A stretch of 64,000 nucleotides of DNA from positions 24,250 to 88,249 of IMG/VR virus record IMGVR_UViG_3300042398_001307; one strand, 5' to 3'. The notes beneath the pieces are model-generated. The model worked only from the letters and a program-made list of their open reading frames with translations, did not search any database and had not been told where the DNA came from. Made by a program: the position numbers and the translations under genes. Numbering within the stretch: the first letter of the stretch is position 1; each line of letters starts with the position of its first letter. Source of the DNA: a virus. Positions 7,446-20,238 of this stretch are shown here, piece by piece.

Positions 7446-7529
7446 TGGTACGTCTGGGCAGATTCGAACTGCCAACTCCGAAGAGTATGGGTTTTAAGCC
7501 CACTATGTATTCCGTTCCATCACAGACGC
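7446..7529 (-). tRNA. tRNA-Leu(TAA)
   Basis: Type II cloverleaf, CCA. Confidence 0.92.
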
Positions 7530-7546
7530 ATTATATACTTTATTAT

Positions 7547-7625: not shown

Positions 7626-7634
7626 AACATTTAT

Positions 7635-7768
7635 CAGAATGCATTTTATTTTTCACCATCGCGTTTACCAGTTTCGCCACTTAAAACCAGGTTTTAAGGT
7701 AGGACTTGAACCTACAAATCAAAGATAACGGTTTCCTATTAATAAAATATAGTTGCTGTAAGCATTCT
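7635..7768 (-). ncRNA. scaffold RNA with permuted tRNA-Leu-like domain
   Basis: AGAATGC..CAGCAA, T arm, CTTAAAAC-CTG-GTTTTAAG, Leu-type D arm GGCGAAACTGGTAAACGC, GCATTCTG. Confidence 0.85.
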
Positions 7769-7774
7769 AAAACT

Positions 7775-7849
7775 TGGAGGCAGCGGGATGATTCGAACAT
7801 CCGTCCTTTGGGTTATGAGCCCAACAATCTACCACTGATATACGCTGCG
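7775..7849 (-). tRNA. tRNA-Met(CAT), second initiator-like copy
   Basis: GGG/CCC anticodon stem, C1 mismatch, CCA. Confidence 0.88.
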
Positions 7850-7905
7850 TTAATTCTTTGTGTATATTATACACGATTTTTTAATCTTGTCAAGATTAAT
7901 TTTAA

Positions 7906-8028
7906 CAGGATCCTTTTTTTACGTTGCTCTACCAAACTGAGCTAATCCCCGGTAGTTTTTCGGGGATGTTGGATTTGAACCAACGACCAACGGCTCCCAA
8001 TGCAATTATTGTATGCTGAACGGATCCT
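7906..8028 (-). ncRNA. scaffold RNA with permuted tRNA-Pro(TGG)-like domain
   Basis: AGGATCC..CAGCA, ATTGGGA, T arm, ATCCCCG-A..CGGGGAT closed acceptor, D arm TAGCTCAGTTTGGTAGAGC, GGATCCTG. Confidence 0.88.
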
Positions 8029-8097
8029 AAAACTTTTAAAATTGTTAAAGAGCTTATTAACTAATATGTGTACATTATACACTAATTAAATTATATG

Positions 8098-8562
8098 TCA
8101 AGTATAATTTGCTTCCCATCCATCTTTTTCAGTAAAAAATCTTACTGCCTTGATATTTGGATATTCACCAGCATCAAACCAATGTTTTACATTAGCTGGG
8201 ACACTGATTAAATCATTTGGTCCTACATCAAGTTCATAAAAAGTATCAGATACATTAAAAAAGAACTTTGCAGTACCATGAGTAAATAAACGCATTTCAT
8301 AATCAGTGTGAAAATGCTCTTTTTTAAACTGCTCTCTTAATGATTGATAGTTGTTAGTTGAACTATCCAATACAATAGTATCATTGTAAGGAACATCATA
8401 ATCATATTTTATTTGTTCTATAATGTTCTCATCGGGTGGAACATGGACATATAATACATGAATATTATCTAATTGTCTAGCAATTTCTTCATATTCCACG
8501 TAAGTAGTAAAATCTTCTGTGTTATCATAAATTTTTAACATAATACTACTTATCTTTTGCAC
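8098..8562 (-). CDS. mtnD: acireductone dioxygenase (cupin)
   Basis: EHFHTDYEMR, DLISVPANVKHWFD, AVRFF..GW. Confidence 0.85.
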   Translation of the reverse strand: MQKISSIMLKIYDNTEDFTTYVEYEEIARQLDNIHVLYVHVPPDENIIEQIKYDYDVPYNDTIVLDSSTNNYQSLREQFKKEHFHTDYEMRLFTHGTAKFFFNVSDTFYELDVGPNDLISVPANVKHWFDAGEYPNIKAVRFFTEKDGWEANYT

Positions 8563-8580
8563 TATAATAGTGCTAAAATT

Positions 8581-8603
8581 TGGCAGCGCGGGAGGGATTT
8601 GAA
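8581..8603 (-). pseudogene. tRNA 3' fragment (partial T arm, acceptor strand, CCA)
   Basis: TTCAAATCCCTCCCGCGCTGCCA with no adjacent 5' half. Confidence 0.55.
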
Positions 8604-8635
8604 TTGACCATCACTGCTTCTATATTTCTGAGTTA

Positions 8636-9247
8636 TTATTTCTTGTGTGGCATCCCGCCTTTTTTCCACCCTATAGTTTCATAATAAGTTAGTTCTTGTT
8701 TATCTATTCGCTTGGCAACAAACCCATTATTAATGAGAATTTTACCTATATTTGCTTCAGCAATTTTTTTACTATGGTCTAATGTCCTTGGATATGATGA
8801 TATTTTTTTCATATGCTCACGGTGAGCAGACGGGTTATGTTTAGACCAATGGTTTTTTGAAATATTGTTTCGTTTTCTATCAGTTGTAATTTGCTGTAAT
8901 GCAGCATTTCTTATTTTTTCTTTAGTTTCTGTTGAATGCCTTCTTCCACTAAATGCACCTATAATGCCAGGGTTCCCTCCAGAACCTCCCGGTTTTATAT
9001 TATATGTATTGGAAGTAGTTATAAATTCTTCGGTAACTATCTCCGCTTCTTTATCAAACATTTCTTGTTTAGAATTGAAAATAAACAAAATATCTTTTTT
9101 AAAATTTTCAATTCCGTATTTTTTTATGGCTCGTTTTAAATATTTTCCTGAACCCATGTATCCATCATTAATATCATCGGTGGAATGAGCTCCAATGTAT
9201 ATTTTTGAATCTATCAAATTAGTTGTTTTGTATATTATATAATACAT
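8636..9247 (-). CDS. free-standing GIY-YIG homing endonuclease (Seg-like)
   Basis: YIIYKTTN..KIYIGAH..GYMGSG; GRRHSTETKEKI. Confidence 0.9.
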   Translation of the reverse strand: MYYIIYKTTNLIDSKIYIGAHSTDDINDGYMGSGKYLKRAIKKYGIENFKKDILFIFNSKQEMFDKEAEIVTEEFITTSNTYNIKPGGSGGNPGIIGAFSGRRHSTETKEKIRNAALQQITTDRKRNNISKNHWSKHNPSAHREHMKKISSYPRTLDHSKKIAEANIGKILINNGFVAKRIDKQELTYYETIGWKKGGMPHKK

Positions 9248-9443
9248 TTAAATTCTCCTATATGTATTTATACAAAACCATCATGATACCATTTCATCAC
9301 CGGGCTAAAAAAATAAATTCCAGGATAGTTTAATCTCTATGAAGCCTCTATCTTCCTATTGAAAGTTATCTGGAACGGGCTAACTCACTCTTGTTTATTT
9401 TAATAGGTTAAGAGCTTAACCGCCACAAAGGGCTCCTATTGTT

Positions 9444-9533
9444 TGGCGGAAGCGGTGAGATTCGAACTCACGGAACCTTGCGGTTCGCCAGTTTTCAAGA
9501 CTGGTGCAATAGGCCATGCTCTGCCACACTTCC
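9444..9533 (-). tRNA. tRNA-Ser(TGA)
   Basis: Type II cloverleaf, CCA. Confidence 0.92.
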
Positions 9534-9570
9534 ATAATTTGAAGGCCGGTCTATGACCTGCCTTAATAAT

Positions 9571-9646
9571 TGGTACCCTGGGGGAGACTTGAACTCCCAA
9601 AACCTGGTTTCTAAGACCAGTACGTATGCCATTCCGTCACCAGGGC
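9571..9646 (-). tRNA. tRNA-Leu(TAG) with short variable loop
   Basis: CTGGT-CTTAGAA-ACCAG, Leu-type D loop, CCA. Confidence 0.88.
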
Positions 9647-9652
9647 AATATT

Positions 9653-9904
9653 CTATTTATCTGTTAAATTTACTGCTAATAATAAAAAAGTCATCATCTT
9701 TTCATCTTTCAATCCAATCCAGTATGGGCCAGTAGATTGGCTTGCTCTATAATGATTCCAAATACTGAAATCCATACCATATTTTTCTTTTAATGTATTT
9801 CTACATTCTTGTGCGCCTTTTGACCATGTGCTATTGAATCGTAATGCTACAACAAATCCTTTATGGTATAGATGATGTGTTTTATTCAGTTTAACAACTT
9901 TCAT
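9653..9904 (-). CDS. hypothetical protein
   Basis: Probable start MKVVKL. Confidence 0.55.
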   Translation of the reverse strand: MKVVKLNKTHHLYHKGFVVALRFNSTWSKGAQECRNTLKEKYGMDFSIWNHYRASQSTGPYWIGLKDEKMMTFLLLAVNLTDK

Positions 9905-9919
9905 ATTATTAAAATAATT

Positions 9920-9995
9920 TGGAGCTAATAATCGGGATCGAACCGATGACCTCCACTTTACCAAAGTGGTGCTCTACCTACTGAGCTATATCAGC
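9920..9995 (-). tRNA. tRNA-Thr(GGT)
   Basis: Cloverleaf, CCA. Confidence 0.92.
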
Positions 9996-10004
9996 TTTTT
10001 AAAT

Positions 10005-10079
10005 TGGCACCCTTGGAGGGAATCGAACCCCCATCATCTAGTTCGTAGCCAGGTATTCTATCCATTAAACTACAAGGGC
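10005..10079 (-). tRNA. tRNA-Arg(ACG)
   Basis: Cloverleaf, CCA. Confidence 0.92.
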
Positions 10080-10089
10080 TTTATTTTAT

Positions 10090-10202
10090 CAGGATCTGCT
10101 TTTTACGGTTTCCTACCACTAGAAGAACTCTTATAATTAAGAGTGTAGGATTCGAACCTACGTTCCCGGCCTGGAATGCTAATTGTATGCTGTATAGATC
10201 CT
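10090..10202 (-). ncRNA. scaffold RNA with permuted tRNA-like domain
   Basis: AGGATCT..CAGCA, ATTCCAG, T arm GTAGGTTCGAATCCTAC, closed acceptor ACTCTTA/TAAGAGT, D arm CTTCTAGTGGTAGGAA, AGATCCTG. Confidence 0.85.
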
Positions 10203-10211
10203 AAAATTGTT

Positions 10212-10484
10212 TTACTTCAGCTGTGATTTTTTAAACAAACGATCCAACTTAGTGTTGATATCTTTGCAGTATTGTTCAGCCAATAATGCAGCTTTCACTG
10301 CAGCATCAGTTTTAACATTTAATACAGTCACTGCTTTGTTGGTGTCAGCCAACTCAGAAACTAATGTTTTCTGGTTTGATTCGATCACATCGATTTCACT
10401 TTGTAATTTAGCAATATCAGAATTAGTAGCACATCCAGATAAACCAATCAATGCGACTACTGATAACATAACTAATTTTCTCAT
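10212..10484 (-). CDS. Lpp/OprI-like outer-membrane lipoprotein
   Basis: Lipobox LSGC, heptad coiled coil, KLDRLFKKSQLK C-terminus. Confidence 0.8.
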   Translation of the reverse strand: MRKLVMLSVVALIGLSGCATNSDIAKLQSEIDVIESNQKTLVSELADTNKAVTVLNVKTDAAVKAALLAEQYCKDINTKLDRLFKKSQLK

Positions 10485-10513
10485 TTTACACCTTTGTTAA
10501 GTTAAAAAAAATA

Positions 10514-10604
10514 CAGGATGATATATTTTGGCGGAGCCGAGGGATTCGAACCCCCTATAGATACCTACTTATCGGCTTCGGGATTACAGTGCTGTAATCA
10601 TCCT
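10514..10604 (-). ncRNA. scaffold RNA enclosing an acceptor/T-arm minihelix with internal GCCA
   Basis: AGGATGA..CAGCA..GAAGCCG..GGGGTTCGAATCCCT-CGGCTCC-GCCA..TCATCCTG. Confidence 0.8.
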
Positions 10605-10615
10605 ATGTTAAACAA

Positions 10616-11029
10616 TTAAGATAATCGTTCTTTTTCTGATTCCATAAAGCGTGTTCGTTTTACAAGTGATAAAACGAATTCTGACTCAGCGATTGATTTG
10701 GAATCAAGATCAATTCGCAAGTTCAAGAAATACGAAACATCGTTGTGAGTTAGTTTGATTGAGTTGAAATCAGTAACTTCACCAGTAAATGATGATGGTA
10801 CTTTGATAACAATGTCTAACAGTCTTTCAAAATGTTTATCCGCATCAATGAAATACTGTTCAACGAATGATTTCAAATGATGTGGTGTATTTCTCATGGT
10901 ATCGGTTTTATAATTTCTGTAAGAACCAACCGAAACTTTTACCGCTTCAATAAGGTCAGTACCAGTGTATCTAGGATACTCAGGGATTAAGTTGTAAGGG
11001 GTTTTTACTTCTTGTTCAATTACTAGCAT
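10616..11029 (-). CDS. hypothetical protein
   Basis: Probable start MLVIEQ. Confidence 0.55.
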   Translation of the reverse strand: MLVIEQEVKTPYNLIPEYPRYTGTDLIEAVKVSVGSYRNYKTDTMRNTPHHLKSFVEQYFIDADKHFERLLDIVIKVPSSFTGEVTDFNSIKLTHNDVSYFLNLRIDLDSKSIAESEFVLSLVKRTRFMESEKERLS

Positions 11030-11057
11030 TATATCATTCCGATAATAGTTAAAAAAT

Positions 11058-11131
11058 TGGCAGGGATACAAGAACTCGAATCTTGAATGCCAGAATCAAA
11101 ATCTGGTGTGTTACCATTACACTATATCCCA
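11058..11131 (-). tRNA. tRNA-Gln(TTG)
   Basis: Cloverleaf, CCA. Confidence 0.9.
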
Positions 11132-11141
11132 ATTGTTATTA

Positions 11142-11260
11142 CAGGTTAGCATTTTAAGTTTTCCCAATTAAACTACATTAAGTGACCAACCCTAACGCTG
11201 GGATTCGAACCCAGAACTTTCTTTTACAATAAGATTTAATAAAATTGCTGAAACTAACCT
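11142..11260 (-). ncRNA. scaffold RNA with permuted tRNA-like domain
   Basis: AGGTTAG..CAGCAA, TCTT-ATTGTAA-AAGA, T arm CTGGGTTCGAATCCCAG, closed acceptor, D arm TAGTTTAATTGGGAAAAC, CTAACCTG. Confidence 0.85.
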
Positions 11261-11298
11261 ATTGGTCTTATTCGCTGGTGACTAACCTCGAATGTTCT

Positions 11299-11556
11299 TT
11301 AAATTATTTCTATAAAGTCTTCTATCATACTTTTTGCTTTCTTGTATGATTTTTCATTCCACAATATGTCAGAATTATTTGGCATATGTCCAGGATTTCC
11401 ACCTAAATGACTATTACGTATCAAGTACTCTTCTGCTTCTCGGAAGTAATTTAAAAATGCTTGTCCATACCTATATGTTGGGTATTTTACCAACATCCAA
11501 GTATAATGAGCGTTAAATTCTTCATACTGCTGTGTTGTTATTGAGAATTCAGTCAT
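11299..11556 (-). CDS. hypothetical protein
   Basis: 85 aa ORF with YRYGQAFLNYF motif. Confidence 0.6.
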   Translation of the reverse strand: MTEFSITTQQYEEFNAHYTWMLVKYPTYRYGQAFLNYFREAEEYLIRNSHLGGNPGHMPNNSDILWNEKSYKKAKSMIEDFIEII

Positions 11557-11577
11557 ATTATAGTTAAGTTAAGATTA

Positions 11578-11641
11578 CAGGATACACATTTTTACGGGTT
11601 TGATTAGCAGTCAAATGTATTATTGTTGCTGTAGGTATCCT
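11578..11641 (-). ncRNA. scaffold RNA with anticodon stem-loop (GCT, Ser)
   Basis: AGGATAC..CAGCAA..TTTGA-CTGCTAA-TCAAA..GTATCCTG. Confidence 0.85.
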
Positions 11642-11660
11642 AAAACCGTTTATGCTATGT

Positions 11661-11688
11661 ATTATACAGCATTTTAAAACATTGTCAA
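11661..11688 (-). promoter_or_regulatory. sigma70-type promoter
   Basis: TTGACA-16-TATAAT directly upstream of a scaffold RNA. Confidence 0.75.
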
Positions 11689-11697
11689 TATTTATTT

Positions 11698-11772
11698 TGG
11701 AGCGGGTAATGAGATTCGAACTCACGACATTCAGGTTGGCAACTTGAAGCTCTACCACTGAGCTATACCCGC
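11698..11772 (-). tRNA. tRNA-Gly(GCC)
   Basis: Cloverleaf, CCA. Confidence 0.92.
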
Positions 11773-11779
11773 TTAAAAT

Positions 11780-11854
11780 TGGCGGACTGTACGGAATTCG
11801 AATCCGTGATACCACCGTGACAGGGTGGCGTGATAACCGCTTCACTAACAGTCC
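11780..11854 (-). tRNA. tRNA-Asp(GTC)
   Basis: Cloverleaf, CCA. Confidence 0.92.
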
Positions 11855-11976
11855 AAAATTGTTGAGTATCTAACATCATACAATACTCGGGAGACCTCTA
11901 CCAGCCTCGTTTTTATTACTGCGCCTATCCGAAGATAGTGTTTCAAATGATATTAAGGTTGCCCAGCTCTAGAGTT

Positions 11977-12055
11977 TGGAGCTCCGAGACGGATTCGAAC
12001 CGCCGATTTTTACTGATTTGCAGTCAGTCCCATTAAGCCACTTTGGTATCGGAGC
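11977..12055 (-). tRNA. tRNA-Cys(GCA)
   Basis: Cloverleaf, U73, CCA. Confidence 0.9.
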
Positions 12056-12062
12056 AAAAACT

Positions 12063-12509
12063 TTATAATAATTTTAAATGACCACTTATTGGGTCAATAT
12101 TTTCTGGATAATCTGGACCGAGTGCTAAACAAGTTTTTGTTGGCACTCCATTAAATTCAGTCAATCCAGCATCAGTTATTAATTTAACATTTACGTTATT
12201 ATCTAATGCTTTTTGATAAATGTCAAGCAATTCTTCTTCACTGTCAACTGAAACACAAACTTTGGTAAATCTACCTTCTAACCATTCTTTAAGAGGCTGT
12301 TTATTTAATTGGATTACAGCACAATTTCCTACCTGAGATTCATAATTGTGATAACCATCGTTATAATCGATAGATGCATCCAAATATATCTCGCTGTAGT
12401 TAAGAATAGCGCCTAATGATGCGTGACTTGCTTGAGCGGCAATTTTGCCTTTTCTCATGTTAAGGTCTTTTCTAACTACAATTACTTGTTTTGGTTCATT
12501 ATTAGCCAT
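12063..12509 (-). CDS. pth2: peptidyl-tRNA hydrolase, Pth2 (archaeal/eukaryotic) type
   Basis: KQVIVVRKDLNMRKGKIAAQASHA, ITDAGLTEF, TCLALGP. Confidence 0.92.
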   Translation of the reverse strand: MANNEPKQVIVVRKDLNMRKGKIAAQASHASLGAILNYSEIYLDASIDYNDGYHNYESQVGNCAVIQLNKQPLKEWLEGRFTKVCVSVDSEEELLDIYQKALDNNVNVKLITDAGLTEFNGVPTKTCLALGPDYPENIDPISGHLKLL

Positions 12510-12524
12510 ATTTTTCCTAAATGT

Positions 12525-12598
12525 TGGTACCCAGTAGTGGTATCGATCCACTGTTTTGGTCTTATCAGGACCACGTTCTACCTTTGAACTAACCGGGT
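12525..12598 (-). tRNA. tRNA-Ile(GAT)
   Basis: Cloverleaf, variant T loop, CCA. Confidence 0.88.
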
Positions 12599-12771
12599 AT
12601 AATTCTATTTAAACGGAGTTTTTTCACAAGCTAGTGCATGTAGATATGCATATCTTCTAGCTTCATAAGTCAATGTTGCTTCGTTTAATTGTTGTTGTAA
12701 TTTTAGCATATCTTTCTCTGCACTGTCAAGATATCTTTTAGCAATATCTGATGTTCTTTTACCTGCCATAC

Positions 12772-13146
12772 TTACCTCGCAAATCTTTTAGATTTTAACA
12801 ATGACGATAATTCTTTTTCAAATGAAAAAGGTTTATTATCTTCTGGTCTATCGTAAATATAATCTGGAACAATAATTCCAATACAAGTTAGAGCATTGTC
12901 TAAACTAGGTTCATTAAAAGTTGCCCAAGGCAAGTTATTCGAAGAATGTTTAAATAACCACAATAAACCATGCATTTGTTCACTAGTACCGCCATTCAAC
13001 ACATACATTGTTTTATGGGTCTCTGCCCAGTCTGTCAGTATTTCATTACCAGGGAAATTATTGTTGATTTCCTGTAAGCAATGTGCAGCTTGAATTCCAT
13101 GTTGTATGGAACTTAGGTACATATTTGTTAAAAAGTATCCTCTCAT
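12772..13146 (-). CDS. divergent Pth2-fold-like protein
   Basis: LSSIQHGIQAAHC...KTMYVLNGG...FNEPSLDNALTCI pattern. Confidence 0.55.
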   Translation of the reverse strand: MRGYFLTNMYLSSIQHGIQAAHCLQEINNNFPGNEILTDWAETHKTMYVLNGGTSEQMHGLLWLFKHSSNNLPWATFNEPSLDNALTCIGIIVPDYIYDRPEDNKPFSFEKELSSLLKSKRFAR

Positions 13147-13163
13147 ATATTCCTCTGTGTGTT

Positions 13164-13238
13164 TGGAGGTAACGGGTAGATTTGAACTACCGACCAACTC
13201 CGTATGAAGGAGCTGCACTACCACTGTGCTACGTTACC
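13164..13238 (-). tRNA. tRNA with CAT anticodon (elongator Met or Ile2)
   Basis: Cloverleaf, CTCC-TTCATAC-GGAG, CCA. Confidence 0.88.
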
Positions 13239-13257
13239 ATTATATAAACTAATTAGG

Positions 13258-13331
13258 GGTGACCGATGGGACTTGAACCCATAAAAACCTGAATCACAAT
13301 CAGGATCGTCTACCAATTCCGACACGGCCAC
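13258..13331 (-). tRNA. tRNA-His(GTG), no encoded G-1 or CCA
   Basis: CCTGA-TTGTGAT-TCAGG, C73; flanked by ACTAATTAGG/CCTAATTAGT. Confidence 0.85.
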
Positions 13332-13584
13332 ACCTAATTAGTCTAATTTTATATTAAAATGCATTAAACGAGGGAACACGAATGCTATACATTCTCCTGT
13401 CTCCGGCCCTCAAGCTTAACATCCTTCTGGCCAGTGATGTCAAGGTGACTGATTAATGCACTTTAATATAAAATCATATAATAAAGCATACTACACGGAA
13501 TTGAACCGTCTTCATTCAAGCCAGGAGCTCAAACTGTGATCCACACAACGCTGATCAGACGCTAATATGCTTTATTATATGATT

Positions 13585-13660
13585 TGGTAGGACCGCCGAG
13601 ACTCGAACTCGAATTCCCGGATTAAAAGTCCGGTGTTCTAACCAATTGAACTACGATCCC
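13585..13660 (-). tRNA. tRNA-Lys(TTT)
   Basis: Cloverleaf, CCA. Confidence 0.92.
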
Positions 13661-13726
13661 AAATTTTCTTGCCTTCTTTTTCTGTTTTTGTCTTTCGTTT
13701 CATAATTATTTCCTATGTTGTTATAG

Positions 13727-13788
13727 CAGGATACGTTTTTACTAGTTGAATTAAAAGTTCAGTGTAAATTGTTTGCTGAATGTATCCT
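13727..13788 (-). ncRNA. scaffold RNA with anticodon stem-loop (TTT, Lys)
   Basis: AGGATAC..CAGCAA..TGAA-CTTTTAA-TTCA..GTATCCTG. Confidence 0.85.
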
Positions 13789-13807
13789 AAAACTGTTTAT
13801 GCTGTTA

Positions 13808-13835
13808 ATTATACAGCATTTTTATACGTTGTCAA
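13808..13835 (-). promoter_or_regulatory. sigma70-type promoter
   Basis: TTGACA-16-TATAAT directly upstream of a scaffold RNA. Confidence 0.75.
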
Positions 13836-14148
13836 TTATTTTATCTGGATATTGTGCATCACGGCGTTCAATTTCAGCATATGGACTGTATCCAGGCTGT
13901 AATTCCGTGATATTAGTAAATCCATTGGTTTCTGTAATCAAACTATCATTAGAATCGATAGAACCACGATATTTACTACCATAACTACCTTCTAATTTAC
14001 CAGTACTCGGATTAAGATCACCCCATTTAGTGTGATTACCACCGATAACTTCAATATAGTAAGTTTTACCAGTTCTGTATGAATAAACAACATGTCTACC
14101 GGTATCTTCAGTTTTTGTAAAAAATTTCTTTCGGGTTTCTTCGTCCAT
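13822..14148 (-). CDS. hypothetical protein
   Basis: 108 aa ORF with AAGGA RBS; WGDLNPSTGK motif. Confidence 0.7.
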   Translation of the reverse strand: MDEETRKKFFTKTEDTGRHVVYSYRTGKTYYIEVIGGNHTKWGDLNPSTGKLEGSYGSKYRGSIDSNDSLITETNGFTNITELQPGYSPYAEIERRDAQYPDKIIDNV

Positions 14149-14166
14149 AATAGTTTCCTTTGTGTT

Positions 14167-14240
14167 TGGTGCCTCCTGATAGAATCGAACTACCGCAACC
14201 AGTGTGTAAGACTAGTGTTCTCCCATTAAACTAAGGAGGC
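14167..14240 (-). tRNA. tRNA-Val(TAC)
   Basis: Cloverleaf, CCA. Confidence 0.92.
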
Positions 14241-14246
14241 TAAAAT

Positions 14247-14415
14247 TGGTGCTTTCTTATTCCCGGCTATCACAGAGGTTGCCACTTGTACTTCATGGTT
14301 CTCAACTTGCAGGTTCTGGCGGAACAGAATTCTCGTATTGCCAACGTGCTTTTGGTTCAAAGCATACCACCCGTGTGTATCACCACACTTCTTATCCTCT
14401 GGGTCAGAGTATCCG
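14247..14415 (-). ncRNA. candidate structured RNA ending in ACCA
   Basis: GC-richer ORF-free segment with several hairpins inside CAGAGG/CCTCTG. Confidence 0.5.
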
Positions 14416-14419
14416 TTGA

Positions 14420-14698
14420 TTAGACAGATCGTTCTTCAAGTACTTGTTGTTCCCATTTGCTTTTTAAATAGATTTTTTTACCATGCAACCAATATTCTTC
14501 TTCTGTGAAATTAGTAATAACAGCAGGGCCGTGTTCATTATGATATTTCCCATTTTGACAATAACAAGTTCTGCGGCCATCATATCTAATAATTGCTGGG
14601 CCATCTGTATTATGCGATACCCCATTCTTCATAAAAACTACTGTTGTATCAGATACGCTAATAGTGAGTTCAGGATTTTCTGGGTTAATATATTTCAT
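14420..14698 (-). CDS. HxxxGPA-repeat (MORN-like) protein
   Basis: HNTDGPAI and HNEHGPAV repeats. Confidence 0.65.
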   Translation of the reverse strand: MKYINPENPELTISVSDTTVVFMKNGVSHNTDGPAIIRYDGRRTCYCQNGKYHNEHGPAVITNFTEEEYWLHGKKIYLKSKWEQQVLEERSV

Positions 14699-14723
14699 AA
14701 TTACCAAATTGTAAAGTTAAAAT

Positions 14724-14799
14724 TGGTGCTACCGACTGGGATCGAACCAGTATAGCTGGATTTTCAGTCCAATGCATGAACCATCACTGCCACAGTAGC
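14724..14799 (-). tRNA. tRNA-Phe(GAA)
   Basis: Cloverleaf, CCA. Confidence 0.9.
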
Positions 14800-14807
14800 A
14801 AAATTAT

Positions 14808-14862
14808 CAGGATACGCTTTTTCATTTTTCAAGAATGTTTTTTTAATTGCTGCATGTATCCT
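14808..14862 (-). ncRNA. scaffold RNA with anticodon stem-loop (TGA, Ser)
   Basis: AGGATAC..CAGCAA..CATT-CTTGAAA-AATG..GTATCCTG. Confidence 0.85.
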
Positions 14863-14885
14863 AAAACTGTGTAAATTATAACGTA

Positions 14886-15416
14886 TTATTTGAACATTTG
14901 CAAGATATTTTTCATAGCATCTGTATTACTATCCCATGTTTGTCCGCCAAATCGTCCGTATTCTATACGGTTATCAACAGACCATTTATTATAATAATCG
15001 GACAATTCACCATTGCATTCCAATAGTTCATCACCGTAATTAATTATCATTACATTAGGATTCATGCAATCACGAATTGAATAAACCTTCTCAAACGCTT
15101 CTTTAATACACATGCCATGTTGTATTAGTACTAGAATAGCAGTTGCTGTACTTCTACTAACACCAGCATGACAATGAATTAAAACTTTATCAGTATCAGT
15201 AAATGTTTTACTGAATTCTAAAATATTTTCAATATTTTGTAAAGTAGGATGTTGATATCCTTCTAATGGTACTTCAATATCATAAAATCTTTCTATATGA
15301 TGTGGAACATCACATTCAAATACAGGTGTAGTTGGATCAACAATGCTAATGACTTTAGTATGGGTTGGTGCCCATAAACTTGCTTCGTACAATCCTGATA
15401 TAGTTATATCTAACAT
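14886..15416 (-). CDS. dual-specificity/tyrosine phosphatase-family protein
   Basis: HCHAGVSRS (CX5R) motif. Confidence 0.85.
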   Translation of the reverse strand: MLDITISGLYEASLWAPTHTKVISIVDPTTPVFECDVPHHIERFYDIEVPLEGYQHPTLQNIENILEFSKTFTDTDKVLIHCHAGVSRSTATAILVLIQHGMCIKEAFEKVYSIRDCMNPNVMIINYGDELLECNGELSDYYNKWSVDNRIEYGRFGGQTWDSNTDAMKNILQMFK

Positions 15417-15432
15417 TTTTTACCTCAAAAAT

Positions 15433-15484
15433 TGGCGGGGCATAAATTGCTGTTAAAATCCTTGACAGGATTTATTTTGGCCCC
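15433..15484 (-). ncRNA. inside-out scaffold RNA with acceptor-like stem and 3' CCA
   Basis: GGGGC..AAATCCT-GTCA-AGGATTT-taaCAGCAA..GCCCC-GCCA. Confidence 0.7.
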
Positions 15485-15492
15485 ATTATATT

Positions 15493-15567
15493 TGGCATTC
15501 CCTACGGGATTCGAACCCGTGACGACACCGTGAAAGGGTGTTGAGATAACCGCTTCTCCAAGGGAAT
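15493..15567 (-). tRNA. tRNA-Glu(TTC)
   Basis: Cloverleaf, CCA. Confidence 0.92.
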
Positions 15568-15689
15568 AAAACTTTTATATAGAAACACACTCGTTTCTGA
15601 GCTTTCGGTATGTATGCCTACACTTTCGGATAGCCCCTGCGTCCAGTTGCTCAGTATCCCATTAACCGTGAATGTGTTTTTATATAAAT

Positions 15690-15768
15690 TGGTCTCCGTG
15701 GTAGGATTTGAACCTACGAATCCTCTCGATCCCAAATCGAGCGCTCTACCAAACTGAGCTACACGGAG
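15690..15768 (-). tRNA. tRNA-Pro(TGG)
   Basis: Cloverleaf, CCA. Confidence 0.92.
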
Positions 15769-15781
15769 ATAATTAAAAAAT

Positions 15782-15864
15782 TGGTGGAGAAGGTAGGAAT
15801 CGAACCTACTTGTCAGAGACGGGCGGGTTACAGCCGCTTGCCCTACCATTAGAGCATCTTCTCC
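15782..15864 (-). tRNA. tRNA-Tyr(GTA)
   Basis: Type II cloverleaf, CCA. Confidence 0.92.
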
Positions 15865-16102
15865 ATAATTTATAACACTCTCCCACTATGTGTTTTAGAC
15901 GGTTCGTATCCGAATAAAGAGTGTATATTAAAACATACTCACTTTAACTTGTCAAGAACCGTAATTCTTAATGCTGATCTAATATGTTTTAATATTTGCT
16001 AAGACATCCTTAGCTTGTCTATTGAAATTATCTCCAGAACCCCCTGCTTTCCGAAACTTTTTAAGTGTTTTCAGTGCCAGGTGCACCATTCACTGTGTAG
16101 AT

Positions 16103-16131
16103 ATTATAATCTGTGTTACTGTGTCTGTCAA
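16103..16131 (-). promoter_or_regulatory. sigma70-type promoter at the head of the tRNA array
   Basis: TTGACA-17-TATAAT. Confidence 0.8.
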
Positions 16132-16156
16132 CTACTTTTTTAAGGAGTCTAAAACT

Positions 16157-16195
16157 AAAAAACCCTGAGAGTTTTCACTTTCAGGGTTCTTTGAA
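16157..16195 (-). terminator. intrinsic terminator overlapping an antiterminator (attenuator)
   Basis: AACCCTGA..TCAGGGTT-TTTT; the 5' arm can alternatively pair with 16224-16236. Confidence 0.8.
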
Positions 16196-16216
16196 AAATT
16201 AACTTATAATATTAAA

Positions 16217-16357
16217 TTATGTCTTCAAAGAACCCTCTCGATACTCCGGTGTGCGATCATTATTAATTAAACTAAATACACACCATACAGACGCAATCGA
16301 GCCGCCTTTTAAGGTTGATTGTAGTTTAAATTGTTGATGTAATGATTGCATATCCAT
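16217..16357 (-). CDS. putative attenuator leader peptide (46 aa, contains all 20 amino acids)
   Basis: MDMQSLHQQFKLQSTLKGGSIASVWCVFSLINNDRTPEYREGSLKT; AAAGGA upstream; last codons form the antiterminator strand. Confidence 0.65.
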   Translation of the reverse strand: MDMQSLHQQFKLQSTLKGGSIASVWCVFSLINNDRTPEYREGSLKT

Positions 16358-16408
16358 TTGTATCAATTTTCCTTTTATTCAATCAGTTGACCCCAACTGA
16401 TGTGATAT

Positions 16409-16437
16409 ATTATACTCTTACTTATCGTTATTGTCAA
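16409..16437 (-). promoter_or_regulatory. sigma70-type promoter for the leader
   Basis: TTGACA-17-TATAAT. Confidence 0.85.
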
Positions 16438-16559
16438 GAACTTTTTAAAATTCTTTTCCGGTTAAGTGAAAGTATTTATCATTTAACCGGAATTACTATC
16501 TAATATGTGTATATTTTAACATATTTTGTTTGTTTGTCAAGAACTACTTTTATTTATGT

Positions 16560-16847
16560 TTATTGTTTGACTGCCATAATTTTTTGTACTCTAAAGTATG
16601 GTTTTAAAACATTCATAAAAGTTTTAAAGCTGTATATCCCTTCACCAGGGCCTTCACCTTGAAAAACATTAGCATACCATGAATCTGGGTATTCTGCAAC
16701 AAAAAGATTACCATTTTTAGATTTTTTTACATGGGTTTTTACAAACTTCTGTAATTCAATTGGGATTTTAGTTCCAGTAAACCCACCAAGGTGGATGTTA
16801 ACTGCTGATGGTTTGTATCTATTTTCTATAATTTGATGTATTTTCAT
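16560..16847 (-). CDS. hypothetical protein
   Basis: N-terminus MKIHQIIE. Confidence 0.65.
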   Translation of the reverse strand: MKIHQIIENRYKPSAVNIHLGGFTGTKIPIELQKFVKTHVKKSKNGNLFVAEYPDSWYANVFQGEGPGEGIYSFKTFMNVLKPYFRVQKIMAVKQ

Positions 16848-17458
16848 TATGCTACCAATGGATCTATTATTACTGGGACATTACCACGCATCATTACATT
16901 TCCACTATGTAAATCTGGATATGCATTACTACTGAATACATTGCTGTAAAATAATGCATTTGCAATTTCATACATACCTGGATATTGTTGCATCATTCTT
17001 TTCACATCACTAGTCATTTCATAGTCAGGATCATAGTTTAAACTTATAAAGTATTCTTGAAATGTTTCTAATATCTTATCAACAATATTCCATTCTCCTG
17101 GAGAAATAGGTCTTAATTTTTCCAATTTAACTGCATATGAATCTGGTCCTATTTTAATAATAGGACCTAATCTTTTTGGAAGATTAGGATTGTTTTGATG
17201 TTTTTTAAAGTATTTATAAAACTGTAAGTATGCATCATCATGTTTAAAGACCTTATATATCCATGGATATGAAGGATGTTCATATGCAGAACCATATGAA
17301 CCAGTACCTAGATGTTTAAAGCCATACGTATCCATTATTGCTTCCCATTCTTCCAGTGTTGCATATAGAGGTTTATCCCTTATATCACCACCTAATATTT
17401 CTTTTGCTTTCTTATAAATATCAAATTTCTTATAACCAGTCAATTCATTTATTTTCAT
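16847..17458 (-). CDS. protein-kinase-like protein
   Basis: LGTGSYGSAY P-loop, YKVF, DLHSGNVM, IIDP. Confidence 0.8.
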   Translation of the reverse strand: MKINELTGYKKFDIYKKAKEILGGDIRDKPLYATLEEWEAIMDTYGFKHLGTGSYGSAYEHPSYPWIYKVFKHDDAYLQFYKYFKKHQNNPNLPKRLGPIIKIGPDSYAVKLEKLRPISPGEWNIVDKILETFQEYFISLNYDPDYEMTSDVKRMMQQYPGMYEIANALFYSNVFSSNAYPDLHSGNVMMRGNVPVIIDPLVA

Positions 17459-18069
17459 ATGTAATTATCCATATATTATTCATTATTTATCATATCATGT
17501 AGAGGTGAACGGAGTTCACCTGGTCTTCGCTATCGCTCATCCCATATTCGCTAACGCTCTTAATTCAATAATGATAATAATCATAACATAATAATCAATT
17601 ATATACTATTCATCTAGATTACGAGCACACTTTGCCTTAAGCAGGCAAAGTTAAAAAAATCTACTTCATCTGAGTTGACTTCGACTAGCATTACAACATT
17701 ACCGAGGCGGTCAGCCTGTACCTCTAGTTGCGTCTTTATCTGACGGCGGGTATATATACAAATGCCAGTTTCTTGCATATATCCGTGTGGAATTTATCCA
17801 CTCTTTTAGCCTTAAATTTTCTCTCTTCAAATAGCAAAACCGGTTGTATGAAGGCATATCCGATCATCGTCCTGTTAAGGATAGTTGCTAAGTACTCCAT
17901 TACAGCGTGGAGATTAATGTCCAAGTGGCTTTTCTGCCCTATTTTCATTACACACGAAATAAACCTGTGCTAGTCATAACTGTACTATTGTGCCTGAAAA
18001 ATGTGCCTAAGAATTGCCTAATGAGATGTATTATACTACAGACCTTTGAGATTGTCTAGCTTTATTTTA

Positions 18070-18606
18070 CTAATCGTAATCATCGTCATACGCAGATGGA
18101 TCATCATAATATTTGTAATATCCTTCATTTTCTTTTAATACTCTAATTTTGTCACCCATTTGTATTTGCAACATTGTTAAATGTGATTCTTTTAAAATGT
18201 CAGTGATGAACCATAACGTACCACAGCCGCCGCCGTATGTTTTGATTGGCCCGTGCTTGATACTGGTTTGCTGTAAACTTTCCCTAAGCAATGAACCATA
18301 TTCGGTTATGATTCTAGTAATACCTTTTTCACGATTCTTCAATCTAATTTTATCGTGTTCTGTAAGTTGTGTAATAATAGCAGTATTGCTATCATCGATC
18401 AGTAGCAAGCAATCTTTTATTTTAATCGATCCTTTGGTATGACTAGAATCGGGTCTTTCACGAGTTGACCATTTTACATTACACTCTACGTGATCTACGT
18501 AATAAGAAGTACCCTTTGTTGTTATTATCCACATCGGTATACTACTATCTTCTAAATGTTTCTTATTAAAATGAAATAATAAATCATCACACTCTAATTC
18601 TATCAT
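18070..18606 (-). CDS. hypothetical protein
   Basis: Probable start MIELEC. Confidence 0.65.
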   Translation of the reverse strand: MIELECDDLLFHFNKKHLEDSSIPMWIITTKGTSYYVDHVECNVKWSTRERPDSSHTKGSIKIKDCLLLIDDSNTAIITQLTEHDKIRLKNREKGITRIITEYGSLLRESLQQTSIKHGPIKTYGGGCGTLWFITDILKESHLTMLQIQMGDKIRVLKENEGYYKYYDDPSAYDDDYD

Positions 18607-18729
18607 AATTTTTCCTTGAATAATTTTTGGCATAAAAAAACCCAAGCCATCTTGATTGCTCAAGACAGTACTTGGGTAAAAAAGGAGTTTTTTAAATTTT
18701 TAAAAAATCTTGTAATCTACAACATGATA

Positions 18730-19116
18730 TTAGATCAAAGATTTATATAATGAACCAGACAATTGGAAGTTTGATTTCCAGCCCCATTCATCTAACACTA
18801 ACTGGTTAAAAGTTGTGTCATCTAACTCAATAATATCTTCGATACTCAATTCGAGCATTCTGATAGCACGGGTGTAGCTTTGTTCATACGAATTGGGAAC
18901 TGCTGGCAAGTTTTTAACTTTTGCAATGCTATCTAATTCACCGGTATTAACCAGTTTCAAGTTATTTTTAGTGATAACTACAACTGCTTTTTTAAAATCT
19001 TCGACAGATTCGATATATTCAGCAATGTGTTTTTCTTTGTTTTCACGAACTACTGCTAGTAATTCTTCTCTTTTGATTTTTACTGTTTTCATAACATTAT
19101 TTTCAATGTTTCTCAT
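18730..19116 (-). CDS. hypothetical protein
   Basis: 128 aa ORF, YTRAIRMLELS..FNQLVLDEWGWK. Confidence 0.75.
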   Translation of the reverse strand: MRNIENNVMKTVKIKREELLAVVRENKEKHIAEYIESVEDFKKAVVVITKNNLKLVNTGELDSIAKVKNLPAVPNSYEQSYTRAIRMLELSIEDIIELDDTTFNQLVLDEWGWKSNFQLSGSLYKSLI

Positions 19117-19131
19117 AATAAAATGGAATAG

Positions 19132-19206
19132 TGGTGCGCTTGATGGGATTCGAACCCATTATCGTAAGTTTTAGAGGCTTTTGCTATACCAAGCAGCTTC
19201 AAGCGC
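19132..19206 (-). tRNA. tRNA with CTA anticodon (probable amber suppressor)
   Basis: Perfect acceptor and T arms, loop CT-CTA-AA, weak anticodon stem, ACCA. Confidence 0.65.
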
Positions 19207-19241
19207 GAAATTATAAAAATAGTAGGGATTTCTCCCTACTA

Positions 19242-19595
19242 GGTATTTTTGGTTATAAGGTATTTCCTACCCCAGAACTCGCTGGATATTAAGCAGCGAT
19301 AGCATCAAAGATGCCATCTACAGTGTAGAATTCAAATTTTGTATTTGCTTTTGCATTTACTTTAAATGCTTGATTTACGGTCATCGCCTACCGATTCTCC
19401 AATGTTCTTTTATCCAGCAATCGAATCTAAGTCAGGCCCATTATAAAACATATTAGCACTTCCCTTTTAAGGGGCAGGAAGTTTATGGCTATGGCCCCAC
19501 TCTGATACCTCTAATATGTTTTATGGTGGACCTGGCGATGTTCTGCCCATCGCGTCTTACCAAACTATTACAACATCTTCAACGAATTCTTTAAA
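19242..19595 (-). ncRNA. ssrA: permuted two-piece tmRNA
   Basis: Acceptor piece ends CAGGTCC-ACCA (19524); coding piece starts GGGCCTG (19439) with G3-U70; tag AKANTKFEFYTVDGIFDAIAA*. Confidence 0.88.
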
Positions 19596-19603
19596 TTACA
19601 TGT

Positions 19604-19631
19604 ATTATACTACATAAAAAACTTTTGTCAA
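19604..19631 (-). promoter_or_regulatory. sigma70-type promoter of the tmRNA
   Basis: TTGACA-16-TATAAT. Confidence 0.8.
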
Positions 19632-19788
19632 GAACTATTTTCTTTTTACACGTGGTTTAATTCTTGGTTTACCGGTTAATGAGTTGTTTCTGCTTCTAGC
19701 CATTGTAAATACCTCTGTTGTTTAAGATGGGTTTATTATACATCAGCCAAACGTGATGTCAAGCATTTTTTAATAAATACTACTATTA

Positions 19789-20238
19789 ATGGAGAAGGTT
19801 GTGGATATAGGAATACCAAATTTTGATTTTTTTAGTCTTGTGCAACAATGTGGGTTTCCTATTGCATTAGCTGTGGTATGTGGATGGTTTGTTATGCAAG
19901 CAATCCAGTTAGTACTTGGGTCTGTTGTAAAATCCATTAAGAAGATGACATTTTTAATTAAATCAATGGATGGACGTGTGAAACAGATGAATGTTGATAT
20001 TATTGAGATTGATAAATTGATTTCACAAGCATTGAATGTTCAATCATTGCCAGAAAAAATACATCATGAAGTAGCTGCAGTTATGAATAGTCATGATGTG
20101 AAACAACCGATACCAACTAAACCAGTGCCTGATAATCCTAAAAAATCAATCCGTGAGAAATTTAAAAATGCGGTTGATAATGTGATTGATAAAAATGTTG
20201 ATTCAATCGTAGAAAAAGTAGAAGGAATTACAAAATGA
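19789..20238 (+). CDS. membrane protein (GFPIA paralog 1)
   Basis: One TM helix followed by coiled coil. Confidence 0.7.
   Translation: MEKVVDIGIPNFDFFSLVQQCGFPIALAVVCGWFVMQAIQLVLGSVVKSIKKMTFLIKSMDGRVKQMNVDIIEIDKLISQALNVQSLPEKIHHEVAAVMNSHDVKQPIPTKPVPDNPKKSIREKFKNAVDNVIDKNVDSIVEKVEGITK

What the first reader, a model, noticed from the sequence alone, without database searches (positions are those of the whole stretch)
16157..16437. All-20-amino-acid leader peptide attenuator at the head of the tRNA/mimic array
Seen: a perfect sigma70 promoter, then a 46-codon ORF that contains every amino acid by codon 39 and uses many GC-rich codons unusual for this genome (GGC, TCG, GCG, CGC, CCG, CGA). Its last codons (AGGGTTCTTTGAA, 16224-16236) pair over 13 bp with 16183-16195, which overlaps the 5' arm of a terminator. 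Established: ribosome-coupled attenuation normally senses one or a few amino acids. Inference: stalling at any codon (a tRNA cleaved or uncharged) leaves the antiterminator free and gives read-through into the tRNA array, a general translation-stress sensor. Caveat: another promoter at 16103-16131 lies past the terminator, so gating can only be partial.
Basis: partly seen in the sequence, partly recalled or inferred. Interest (0 to 1): 0.85.

Follow-up and report, generated by a model that had tools for sequence, protein, structure and literature searches.

The report
Translation-coupled terminator switch before phage tRNAs
A large lake-water phage keeps a short translated mini-gene whose last codons can fold against a transcription stop signal just ahead of its tRNA genes, so it probably ties transcription read-through to how fast ribosomes translate, but the evidence that it is built to sense all 20 amino acids is weak.

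Summary
That includes the consensus promoter, the 46-codon ORF with all 20 amino acids by codon 39, twice the usual share of rare codons, and a perfect 13-bp (15 bp with wobble) pairing of the last codons with a segment sharing 5 nt with an intrinsic terminator. A second consensus promoter lies just behind.

The module is conserved. I found five distinct DNA versions in two lineages and 14 peptide variants in five lineages, and wherever downstream DNA is held it lies upstream of a tRNA array. The switch arms and terminator are 93-100% identical between lineages, whereas the ORF body is 55% identical.

Only 1 of 11 terminator-like hairpins in the window has such a competitor.

Best reading: a ribosome-mediated attenuator that gauges general translation speed, of the bmrB or whiB7-uORF kind, in a new setting.

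The all-20 claim is weak:
- 2 of 245 small ORFs in the window reach all 20 by chance.
- 11 of 14 variants keep all 20.
- Glu and Tyr sit too close to the switch to be sensed.

Gating is partial, because a promoter follows the terminator. Nothing was tested functionally.

The scan met this module before on related DNA (e1-6037421, e1-5643252, e1-5710864).

The parts
16409..16437 (-). Promoter P1, consensus sigma-70 type (TTGACA, 17 nt, TATAAT)
   Evidence: 12 of 12. 83% identical between the window and the L005 lineage.
16381..16402 (-). Predicted transcript start (about 16402) and 8-bp 5'-terminal hairpin with a 4-nt loop
   Evidence: I20: arms 16382-16389 and 16394-16401, 100% complementary. 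fold it in both lineages. One pair is changed on both sides in L005 (pair 4/21).
16370..16374 (-). Shine-Dalgarno-like AAGGA, 12 nt before the ATG (11 nt in L005)
   Evidence: Read. In my own motif search, 21 of the 24 long ORFs (of 47) that have such a motif space it 4-11 nt from the start. This spacing is therefore at the long end.
16217..16357 (-). Leader ORF, 46 codons plus stop
   Evidence: It stays open in both DNA lineages despite 55% identity of codons 1-36, and length differences are whole codons. There are 14 peptide variants in public data. RNA-library contigs cover 16223/16234-16402.
16360..16366 (-). 5' arm of a possible long-range helix (between the SD-like motif and the ATG) that pairs with 16238-16244 (codons 38-40)
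   Evidence: Predicted in both lineages. The sequence is invariant, so there is no covariation test. Inference only.
16238..16249 (-). Codons 37-40: invariant in all 14 peptide variants, three of the four are rare codons, and they partly form the 3' arm of the long-range helix
   Evidence: 92% nucleotide identity.
16222..16236 (-). R1: 5' arm of the long hairpin, made of the last two bases of codon 41 through the first base of codon 46
   Evidence: 95% identical between lineages.
16198..16221 (-). Apex of the long hairpin: 2-nt internal loop, 7-bp inner stem that begins with the stop codon, and end loop
   Evidence: 75% identical between lineages. The inner stem is kept and the loop changes.
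16183..16197 (-). R2: 3' arm of the long hairpin. Its last 5 nt are also the start of the terminator's 5' arm
   Evidence: 93% identical between lineages.
16157..16187 (-). Intrinsic terminator: interrupted 10-bp stem with a 4-nt loop, then six T
   Evidence: -13.3 kcal/mol alone; -18.6 when R1 is masked.. The stem-loop is 100% identical between lineages.
16103..16131 (-). Promoter P2, consensus, 26 nt after the T run. It is not part of the switch but limits what the switch can gate
   Evidence: Present in all five DNA versions. The 24 nt up to and including its -35 are 100% identical between lineages.

Best explanation
This is a ribosome-mediated transcription attenuator that reads the overall pace of translation of a roughly 46-codon leader ORF, not each amino acid.

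Transcription starts at P1, near 16402. The RNA opens with a protective 5' hairpin and then carries the ORF. The last six codons (R1, 16236-16222) can pair with R2 (16197-16183). R2 shares its last 5 nt with the 5' arm of the terminator.

If a ribosome has reached the rare-codon cluster at codons 37-41 or the stop codon (which lies inside the hairpin) while the polymerase makes R2 and the terminator's 3' arm, R1 is covered. R2 then joins the terminator stem and the P1 transcript ends at 16162-16157.

If the ribosome is late, stalled before about codon 36, or absent, R1:R2 forms first and withholds those 5 nt. The P1 transcript then runs on through P2 into the small-RNA unit and the tRNA array.

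The gain is an increment on top of constitutive P2 and P3.

Shown: the anatomy, its conservation and the maintained ORF. Inferred: translation, the race between ribosome and polymerase, and any effect on read-through.
For: 1. Mutually exclusive folds. The long hairpin alone is -24.0 kcal/mol and the terminator alone -13.3. The state with the full hairpin (-30.5) beats the state with the forced terminator (-26.7). With R1 masked, as under a ribosome, the terminator forms and extends (-18.6).

2. The stop codon sits inside the hairpin, 2 nt after R1.

3. Of 11 terminator-like hairpins that my own scan found in the window, only this one has an exact upstream complement of 8 nt or more overlapping its 5' arm (13 nt).

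4. Conservation between the window and the L005 lineage is 95% for R1, 93% for R2, 100% for the terminator stem-loop and 92% for codons 37-40. It is 55% for ORF codons 1-36, 52% for the P2 spacer and 46% for the upstream unit.

5. The ORF is kept open in both DNA lineages and in 14 peptide variants, with whole-codon length changes. Codon 41 varies Glu/Lys, which keeps the two bases that start R1.

6. The ORF body is not a conserved RNA fold. 16 predicted pairs break in one lineage and 4 change on both sides.

7. Rare codons: 11 of 46 against 11.7% in bulk. In bmrB, rare codons set the basal read-through (PMC4191407, section 16).

8. The module lies upstream of a tRNA array in the window and in every relative with downstream DNA, although what follows P2 differs. 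The first tRNA is 293 nt away in the window, 417 in L009, 579 in L005 and 935 in L004.

9. Contigs from RNA libraries of one lake sample (two runs) cover the leader from 7 nt upstream of 16402 to 16223 or 16234.
Against: - A consensus promoter (P2) starts 26 nt after the T run in all five DNA versions, and another promoter-like site precedes tRNA-Tyr. The array is therefore transcribed regardless.
- The SD-like motif lies 11-12 nt from the ATG. That is longer than in 23 of the 24 long ORFs where my search found a motif.
- There is no covariation test of R1:R2 or of the terminator. Both are invariant in the only two DNA lineages I could fetch, so a recent exchange of this block cannot be excluded. 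Neighbouring proteins range from 41% to 100% identity among the same contigs.
- The peptide has positionally conserved residues, and its overall divergence (48-50%) resembles that of neighbouring proteins (41-77%). This also fits a functional small protein.
- The long hairpin (15 + 7 bp with an internal loop) also has the shape of an RNase III site.
- RNA-library contigs cannot show RNA ends, and DNA carry-over is not excluded.
- No functional data exist.
Confidence: 0.45

Rival explanations
1. This is an ordinary early gene for a small phage protein with its own promoter and terminator. The long hairpin is a 3' stabiliser or an RNase III-type processing site, and the 5-nt overlap with the terminator has no regulatory role.
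For: - The region is built of short promoter-driven units: 9 perfect promoters lie on this strand.
- The gene upstream encodes a T7 gp0.7-like kinase, typical of early host-takeover regions (phrog_15752, E 2e-15).
- The peptide keeps fixed positions across five lineages and diverges about as much as neighbouring proteins.
- P2 directly behind the terminator fits an insulating terminator between tandem strong promoters.
- The hairpin has 22 bp with an internal loop.
Against: - An overlap that withholds 5 of the terminator's 10 pairs would weaken a purely insulating terminator, and the full-hairpin state is the more stable one.
- None of the other 10 terminator-like hairpins has such a competitor.
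- The terminator loop and mismatch are invariant although the flanks are about 50% diverged.
- The peptide matches no Pfam or PHROG family at E up to 1.
Confidence: 0.3
2. This is the first reader's full reading: the leader is built to hold every amino acid, so that a stall at any codon (any tRNA cleaved or uncharged) opens the terminator. It would be a universal gauge of tRNA supply feeding the tRNA and decoy array.
For: - 11 of 14 variants hold all 20 amino acids in 42-46 residues. The chance is 0.4-0.9% for unrelated peptides of that length.
- In P0004, Cys, Ala and Phe sit at different positions than in the window version, yet all are kept. The conditional chance is 0.04-0.05.
- Each of the three incomplete variants is known from 1 contig, while the eight complete ones in the same table are each known from 2-9 contigs (Fisher 0.006, post hoc).
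Against: - 3 of 14 natural variants lack 1-3 amino acids.
- Given homology, retention is unsurprising for most lineages: 0.41-0.46 for P0005 and 0.25-0.50 for the P0008 group.
- 2 of 245 small ORFs in the window reach all 20 by chance.
- Tyr occurs only at the invariant codon 39 position in 13 of 14 variants, and Glu occurs only at codons 38 and 41 in the window version. There a stalled ribosome would cover the base of R1 and favour termination (inference).
- The leader's codons are not enriched for those read by the phage's own tRNAs: 43 of 46 against 84.8% in bulk (P 0.07), and 36 of 42 in L005 (P 0.54).
- No tRNA-Trp was found in the window's array.
Confidence: 0.12
3. This is a structured non-coding RNA, and the ORF is incidental.
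For: The whole transcript folds far better than shuffles (z -5.9, 0 of 200). The ORF body alone gives z -2.3 (2 of 200).
Against: - The fold of the ORF body is not kept between lineages: 16 pairs break.
- The frame stays open through 45% nucleotide divergence, with whole-codon indels.
- No Rfam family matches 16140-16440 at E up to 1.
Confidence: 0.04

Closest known systems
whiB7 uORF attenuator of mycobacteria (bioRxiv 10.1101/2023.06.02.543512; abstract and section 7 read)
   Same: - A long leader ORF followed by antiterminator and terminator folds.
- Stalling caused by many different amino-acid or tRNA deficits gives read-through.
- The M. smegmatis uORF encodes 19 of 20 amino acids.
- Which amino acids are sensed is set by the uORF's composition, and the uORF sequence varies between species.
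   Different: - The cargo there is one transcription factor with no promoter behind the terminator. Here a consensus promoter follows and the cargo is small RNAs and tRNAs of a phage.
- The whiB7 uORF is enriched in Ala. This ORF has no enriched residue.
- There is no sequence relation.
bmrB leader of Bacillus subtilis bmrCD (PMC4191407; abstract and sections 14 and 16 read)
   Same: - A leader ORF of similar size (162 bp) with rare codons and alternative stem-loops.
- It responds to general slowing of translation rather than to one amino acid.
- Rare codons raise basal read-through.
   Different: - In bmrB the terminator lies inside the coding sequence. Here the stop codon lies inside the antiterminator hairpin, 29 nt before the terminator stem.
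- bmrB is a host gene for a drug exporter.
Classical leader-peptide attenuators of amino-acid operons, trp and his (PMC1183508, abstract read; further details recalled)
   Same: - A promoter-proximal ORF, competing hairpins that share a segment, and an intrinsic terminator.
- A race between ribosome and polymerase.
- Use of codons that are rare in bulk mRNA.
   Different: - There are no runs of regulatory codons.
- There are three interacting segments rather than four, so the untranslated state should read through rather than terminate.
- The ORF is two to three times longer.
- The cargo is RNA genes.
Stress-induced tRNA array (trn operon) of Anabaena (PMC8421152, passages read; PMC10272220, search listing only)
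   Same: An extra array of tRNA genes whose expression rises when translation is impaired.
   Different: Control there works through direct repeats at the promoter (a repressor). The words leader peptide, attenuat- and terminator occur 0 times in that text.

Membership tests
Ribosome-mediated (leader-peptide) transcription attenuator | A short ORF with a start signal close behind the promoter | tested here: met
   The ATG lies 45 nt after the predicted start, with AAGGA 12 nt upstream (long spacing). The ORF is conserved in 14 variants.
Ribosome-mediated (leader-peptide) transcription attenuator | An intrinsic terminator between the leader ORF and the cargo | tested here: met
   Stem-loop of -13.3 kcal/mol followed by six T.
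Ribosome-mediated (leader-peptide) transcription attenuator | An alternative fold that excludes the terminator and is itself excluded by a ribosome on the ORF | tested here: met
   R1:R2 shares 5 nt with the terminator. R1 is codons 41-46 and the stop codon lies inside the hairpin. Masking R1 gives the terminator fold.
Ribosome-mediated (leader-peptide) transcription attenuator | Regulatory codons enriched for the sensed amino acid(s) | tested here: not met
   No residue is enriched, and the commonest (Ser) occurs 6 times in 46. There is only a twofold excess of rare codons.
Ribosome-mediated (leader-peptide) transcription attenuator | Cargo expression depends on read-through | tested here: inconclusive
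   A consensus promoter lies 26 nt behind the T run in all 5 DNA versions. Read-through can only add to it.
Ribosome-mediated (leader-peptide) transcription attenuator | Read-through rises when the ribosome stalls in the ORF | not testable with these tools
   This needs coupled transcription-translation or reporter assays.
General translation-stress leader ORFs (whiB7 uORF, bmrB) | A long leader ORF of broad composition whose sequence drifts while the flanking RNA switch is kept | tested here: met
   ORF codons 1-36 are 55% identical, against 93-100% for the switch arms and terminator. The variants hold 17-20 different amino acids.
   11 of 14 variants keep all 20, and three lack 1-3. The conditional chance is 0.04-0.5 per lineage.
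   In the window version Glu occurs only at codons 38 and 41 and Tyr only at codon 39. That is at most 3 codons before R1. The footprint argument is inference.
RNase III processing hairpin (T7 early type; features recalled) | About 20 bp of stem interrupted by an internal loop | tested here: met
   15 bp, a 2x2 internal loop and 7 bp. Cleavage itself is not testable here.
Any described RNA family (Rfam 15) | A match to a covariance model | tested here: not met
   No match within 16140-16440 at E up to 1.
Any described protein family (Pfam-A, PHROGs) | A match to a profile | tested here: not met
   0 families at E up to 1 for the window peptide, P0004 and P0014.

The most novel reading that the evidence does not exclude
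The leader may be a deliberate gauge of the whole tRNA pool. Selection would keep nearly every amino acid in a 42-46-codon test ORF. Depletion or cleavage of almost any tRNA, for example by a host anticodon nuclease, would then delay the ribosome, leave the antiterminator intact and boost transcription from P1 into the phage's own tRNA and tRNA-like RNA array.
Probability: 0.12. Interest if true: 0.85.

Novelty: new variant of a known kind. Interest (0 to 1): 0.5.

Why it matters
Leader-ORF attenuators are known for amino-acid operons and for a few stress and resistance genes. My searches found none for phage tRNA arrays. They covered 'leader peptide' + 'all 20 amino acids' + attenuation (4 papers, none on phages), ribosome-mediated attenuation, and bacteriophage + tRNA genes + leader peptide + terminator/antiterminator (12 of 41 papers listed, none describing this). 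Supplements were closed.

If the switch works, it would show that a giant phage monitors the translational state of the infected cell and adjusts the output of its own translation-support genes. It is easy to test, because promoter, ORF and terminator fit in 280 nt and use consensus sigma-70 signals.

If it does not work, it is simply a conserved small early gene.

Tried and rejected
Searches for relatives
- BLAST of 15950-16620 against the phage collection found nothing, near or distant.
A degenerate DNA pattern found 0 stretches in viral contigs. Alignment A4 found no relative in genome contigs or viral contigs. Alignment A2 and single P0008 were rejected as queries for technical reasons.
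- As a result, covariation in the switch arms could not be tested.
- In one search I dropped 5 of the 10 hits. They are proteins of 372-663 aa with short partial matches and are not members of the peptide family.

Structure of the peptide

Ideas that did not hold
- Codon-to-phage-tRNA matching showed no enrichment.
- A conserved RNA fold of the ORF body was not supported.
- A stem between 16300-16295 and 16243-16238 that I saw by eye is broken by a synonymous change in L004 and L009.

Sequencing runs
- X18 laid nothing, and X20 covered only the tRNA region.
- No RNA contig covers 16142-16222. I draw nothing from that gap or from where contigs end.
- One RNA-library contig runs from 16141 through P2 into the downstream unit. 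It may be read-through RNA or DNA carry-over, and I do not count it.

Technical failures
- timed out and was redone.
- One search failed on a strand setting and was redone.

Full report
SETTING

The window is part of an 88-kb IMG/VR virus record estimated to be 25% complete. It has 35% G+C, and DNA runs from lake-water metagenomes hold the stretch.

On the minus strand, 25 tRNA genes lie between 15864 and 4499. They are interleaved with small units driven by promoters. 9 of the 79 promoter-like sites in 4000-20000 are perfect 12 of 12 matches, and all 9 are on this strand. The total of 79 does not exceed the shuffles (72.8 +/- 8.4).

Upstream of the finding lie a 95-aa ORF and a T7 gp0.7-like kinase.

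THE OBSERVATION

- P1 lies at 16437-16409.
- The ORF runs from 16357 to 16217 and has 46 codons. All 20 amino acids are reached at codon 39.
- The six named codons are each below 13% of their synonymous family.
- 11 of 46 codons are rare, against 11.7% in bulk (binomial 0.016). 2.4% of 46-codon windows in long ORFs are as rich in rare codons.
- The 13-nt complement occurs exactly twice in the window, at 16224-16236 and 16183-16195.
- Folding extends the complement to 15 bp plus a 7-bp inner stem that begins with the stop codon.
- The terminator (16187-16157) folds at -13.3 kcal/mol alone and is followed by six T.
- P2 lies at 16131-16103.

The hairpins are far beyond chance (z -5.3). The all-20 property alone is not. 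Its probability is 0.0087 per 46-mer of this phage's composition. 2 of 245 mechanical ORFs of 35-60 aa in the window have it, and the second one runs across a tRNA-Met gene.

THE SWITCH

The long hairpin (R1 16236-16222 with R2 16197-16183) and the terminator share 5 nt.
- The state with the full hairpin is -30.5 kcal/mol, and the state with the forced terminator is -26.7.
- With R1 and the stop region masked, as under a terminating ribosome, the terminator forms and extends to -18.6.
- In my own scan, 11 terminator-like hairpins were found in the window. Only this one has an exact upstream complement of 8 nt or more that overlaps its 5' arm.

The transcript should begin near 16402, directly with an 8-bp hairpin.

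A further 6-7-bp helix is predicted in both lineages between the spacer before the ATG (16366-16360) and codons 38-40 (16244-16238). Both sides are invariant, so it remains a prediction.

RELATIVES

DNA searches with two exact strings, and with a peptide profile, found the same six IMG/VR contigs. A metagenome scan added three loci, two of them on contigs of 292 and 306 kb.

After removing duplicates, five DNA versions remain in two lineages:
- the window type: window, L004 (= L007), L016 and L009;
- the L005 type: L005 (= L006, L008, L017, L018).

Segment by segment, identity between the window and L005 is as follows.

| Segment | Identity |
|---|---|
| Unit upstream of P1 | 46% |
| P1 | 83% |
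| Start region and 5' hairpin | 77% |
| Leader between hairpin and ATG | 86% |
| ORF codons 1-36 | 55% |
| Codons 37-40 | 92% |
| R1 | 95% |
| Hairpin apex | 75% |
| R2 | 93% |
| Terminator stem-loop | 100% |
| T tract | 79% |
| Up to the -35 of P2 | 100% |
| P2 spacer | 52% |

The 5' hairpin has one pair changed on both sides.

The arms of the switch show no change that could test pairing, apart from one wobble pair that becomes a mismatch. The conservation is strong but gives no covariation. A recent exchange of the block cannot be excluded, because neighbouring proteins in the same contigs range from 41% to 100% identity.

In every relative with downstream DNA, a tRNA array follows. The first tRNA lies 293 nt behind the T tract in the window, 417 in L009, 579 in L005 and 935 in L004. 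What follows P2 differs:
- a small unit whose 36-codon ORF is cut to 13 codons in L005;
- a different unit in L009;
- a protein gene of at least 119 codons in L004 and L016.

IS THE ORF TRANSLATED?

Points in favour:
- It stays open through 45% nucleotide divergence.
- The length differences are 12 nt in L005 and 3 nt in L009, both whole codons. The 1- and 2-nt indels lie in the untranslated leader.
- The upstream in-frame TTG of the window is out of frame in L005, so the ATG is the shared start (read by eye).
- The predicted fold of the ORF body is not kept. Between the lineages, 16 pairs break and 4 change on both sides.
- Contigs from RNA libraries of one sample (two runs) cover 16223 or 16234 to 16402, plus 7 nt. 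They carry the L009-type 3-nt deletion.

Points against:
- The SD-like motif is 11-12 nt from the ATG. The motifs my search found in 24 of 47 long ORFs mostly lie 4-10 nt away.
- Contigs cannot prove transcription.

THE ALL-20 QUESTION

Profile searches of two protein collections gave 11 family members at 90% clustering and 5 at 50% clustering. Together with the loci, this makes 14 distinct variants in five lineages.
- 11 of 14 hold all 20 amino acids.
- P0006 lacks Ala, Asp and Trp.
- P0013 and P0016 lack Phe.
- Unrelated peptides of 42-46 residues reach all 20 in 0.4-0.9% of cases and average 16.4-16.7 different residues.

The variants are homologous, however. I kept the positions identical to the window peptide and redrew the rest. 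The chance of all 20 was then:

| Variant | Chance of all 20 | Observed |
|---|---|---|
| P0005 | 0.41-0.46 | all 20 |
| P0004 | 0.04-0.05 | all 20 |
| P0008 | 0.25-0.26 | all 20 |
| P0014 | 0.49-0.50 | all 20 |
| P0015 | 0.44 | all 20 |
| P0013 | 0.14-0.18 | lacks 1 |
| P0006 | 0.02-0.05 | lacks 3 |
| P0016 | 0.03-0.05 | lacks 1 |

Only P0004, where Cys, Ala and Phe have moved, is a surprising retention.

One post hoc observation leans the other way. Each of the three incomplete variants is known from a single contig, while the eight complete ones in the table are known from 2-9 contigs (Fisher 0.006).

Geometry weakens the any-codon idea. In the window version Glu occurs only at codons 38 and 41, and Tyr only at codon 39. 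Tyr sits only in that invariant block in 13 of 14 variants. A ribosome stalled there would cover the first bases of R1, which are the ones that compete with the terminator. That would favour termination. This is inference from the usual ribosome footprint, recalled and not tested here.

The leader's codons are not enriched for those read by the phage's own tRNAs.

READING

The best-supported reading is a ribosome-mediated attenuator that measures how promptly a ribosome gets through a roughly 46-codon ORF.
- Timely arrival at the rare-codon cluster (codons 37-41) and the stop codon covers R1 and lets the terminator form.
- Delay or absence of the ribosome leaves R1:R2 in place, and P1 transcripts run on.

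The closest systems in print are these:
- the whiB7 uORF: many amino-acid and tRNA deficits induce it, and the M. smegmatis uORF encodes 19 of 20 amino acids;
- bmrB: a 162-bp leader ORF with rare codons that responds to inhibitors of translation;
- the classical trp and his leaders.

An Anabaena tRNA array is induced by translational stress, but through promoter repeats.

What differs here is the phage setting, the RNA-gene cargo, the three-segment design and the strong promoter right behind the terminator. That promoter limits the switch to adding P1 transcripts to a constitutive flow.

The main rival is a plain small early gene whose hairpin serves stability or RNase III processing.

Earlier notes of this scan describe the same module on related DNA, with verdicts from supported to partly supported. 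One of them led me to the whiB7 preprint. Another note, on a different giant phage, led me to the Anabaena paper. I treat them as leads, not as evidence.

Noticed in passing
window 16456-16540 (-): A near-consensus promoter (11 of 12, with TG; 16540-16513) drives only a short hairpin (arms 16456-16469 and 16479-16492, 93% complementary), followed by a T-rich stretch just before P1. The unit is 46% identical in L005, where a different hairpin stands at the same place.
   Followed up: partly
window 15960-16102 (-): The unit behind P2 holds a 36-codon ORF that is cut to 13 codons in L005. It also holds a 6-bp hairpin (15998-16014) whose stem differs at three pairs, all changed on both sides, in L005. 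It is more likely a small RNA than a gene.
   Followed up: partly
window 15925-15937 and 15983-15995: A perfect 13-nt inverted repeat joins the end of the P2 unit to the -10 region of the promoter-like site before tRNA-Tyr.
   Followed up: no
L004 10190-10560 and L016 (after P2): In these relatives a protein gene of at least 119 codons follows P2, in place of the small RNA unit. By eye its end resembles a GIY-YIG homing endonuclease (recalled motif, not searched).
   Followed up: no
window 16847-17458 (-): A 203-aa protein matches phage T7 gp0.7-type protein kinases (phrog_15752, E 2e-15).
   Followed up: partly
window 17829-17975, 19132-19206, 19289-19588 (-): Rfam finds a Polynucleobacter-1 RNA (83 bits) and a permuted tmRNA (92 bits). 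ARAGORN finds a tRNA with anticodon CTA (an amber reader) next to the tmRNA.
   Followed up: no
window 4273-4385, 7887-8012, 11132-11243 (-): Matches to the Y RNA-like family YrlA lie inside the tRNA array, below threshold (32-42 bits; gathering score 69). Earlier notes of the scan describe these as tRNA-mimic modules next to a Ro60-like gene.
   Followed up: no
window 4499-15864 (-): The 25 tRNAs of the array cover 19 amino acids. No tRNA-Trp was found in the window, whereas the L005-type array has one.
   Followed up: no
window 7767-7874 (-): The only other small mechanical ORF with all 20 amino acids (35 aa) runs across a tRNA-Met gene. This shows that the property arises by chance.
   Followed up: yes
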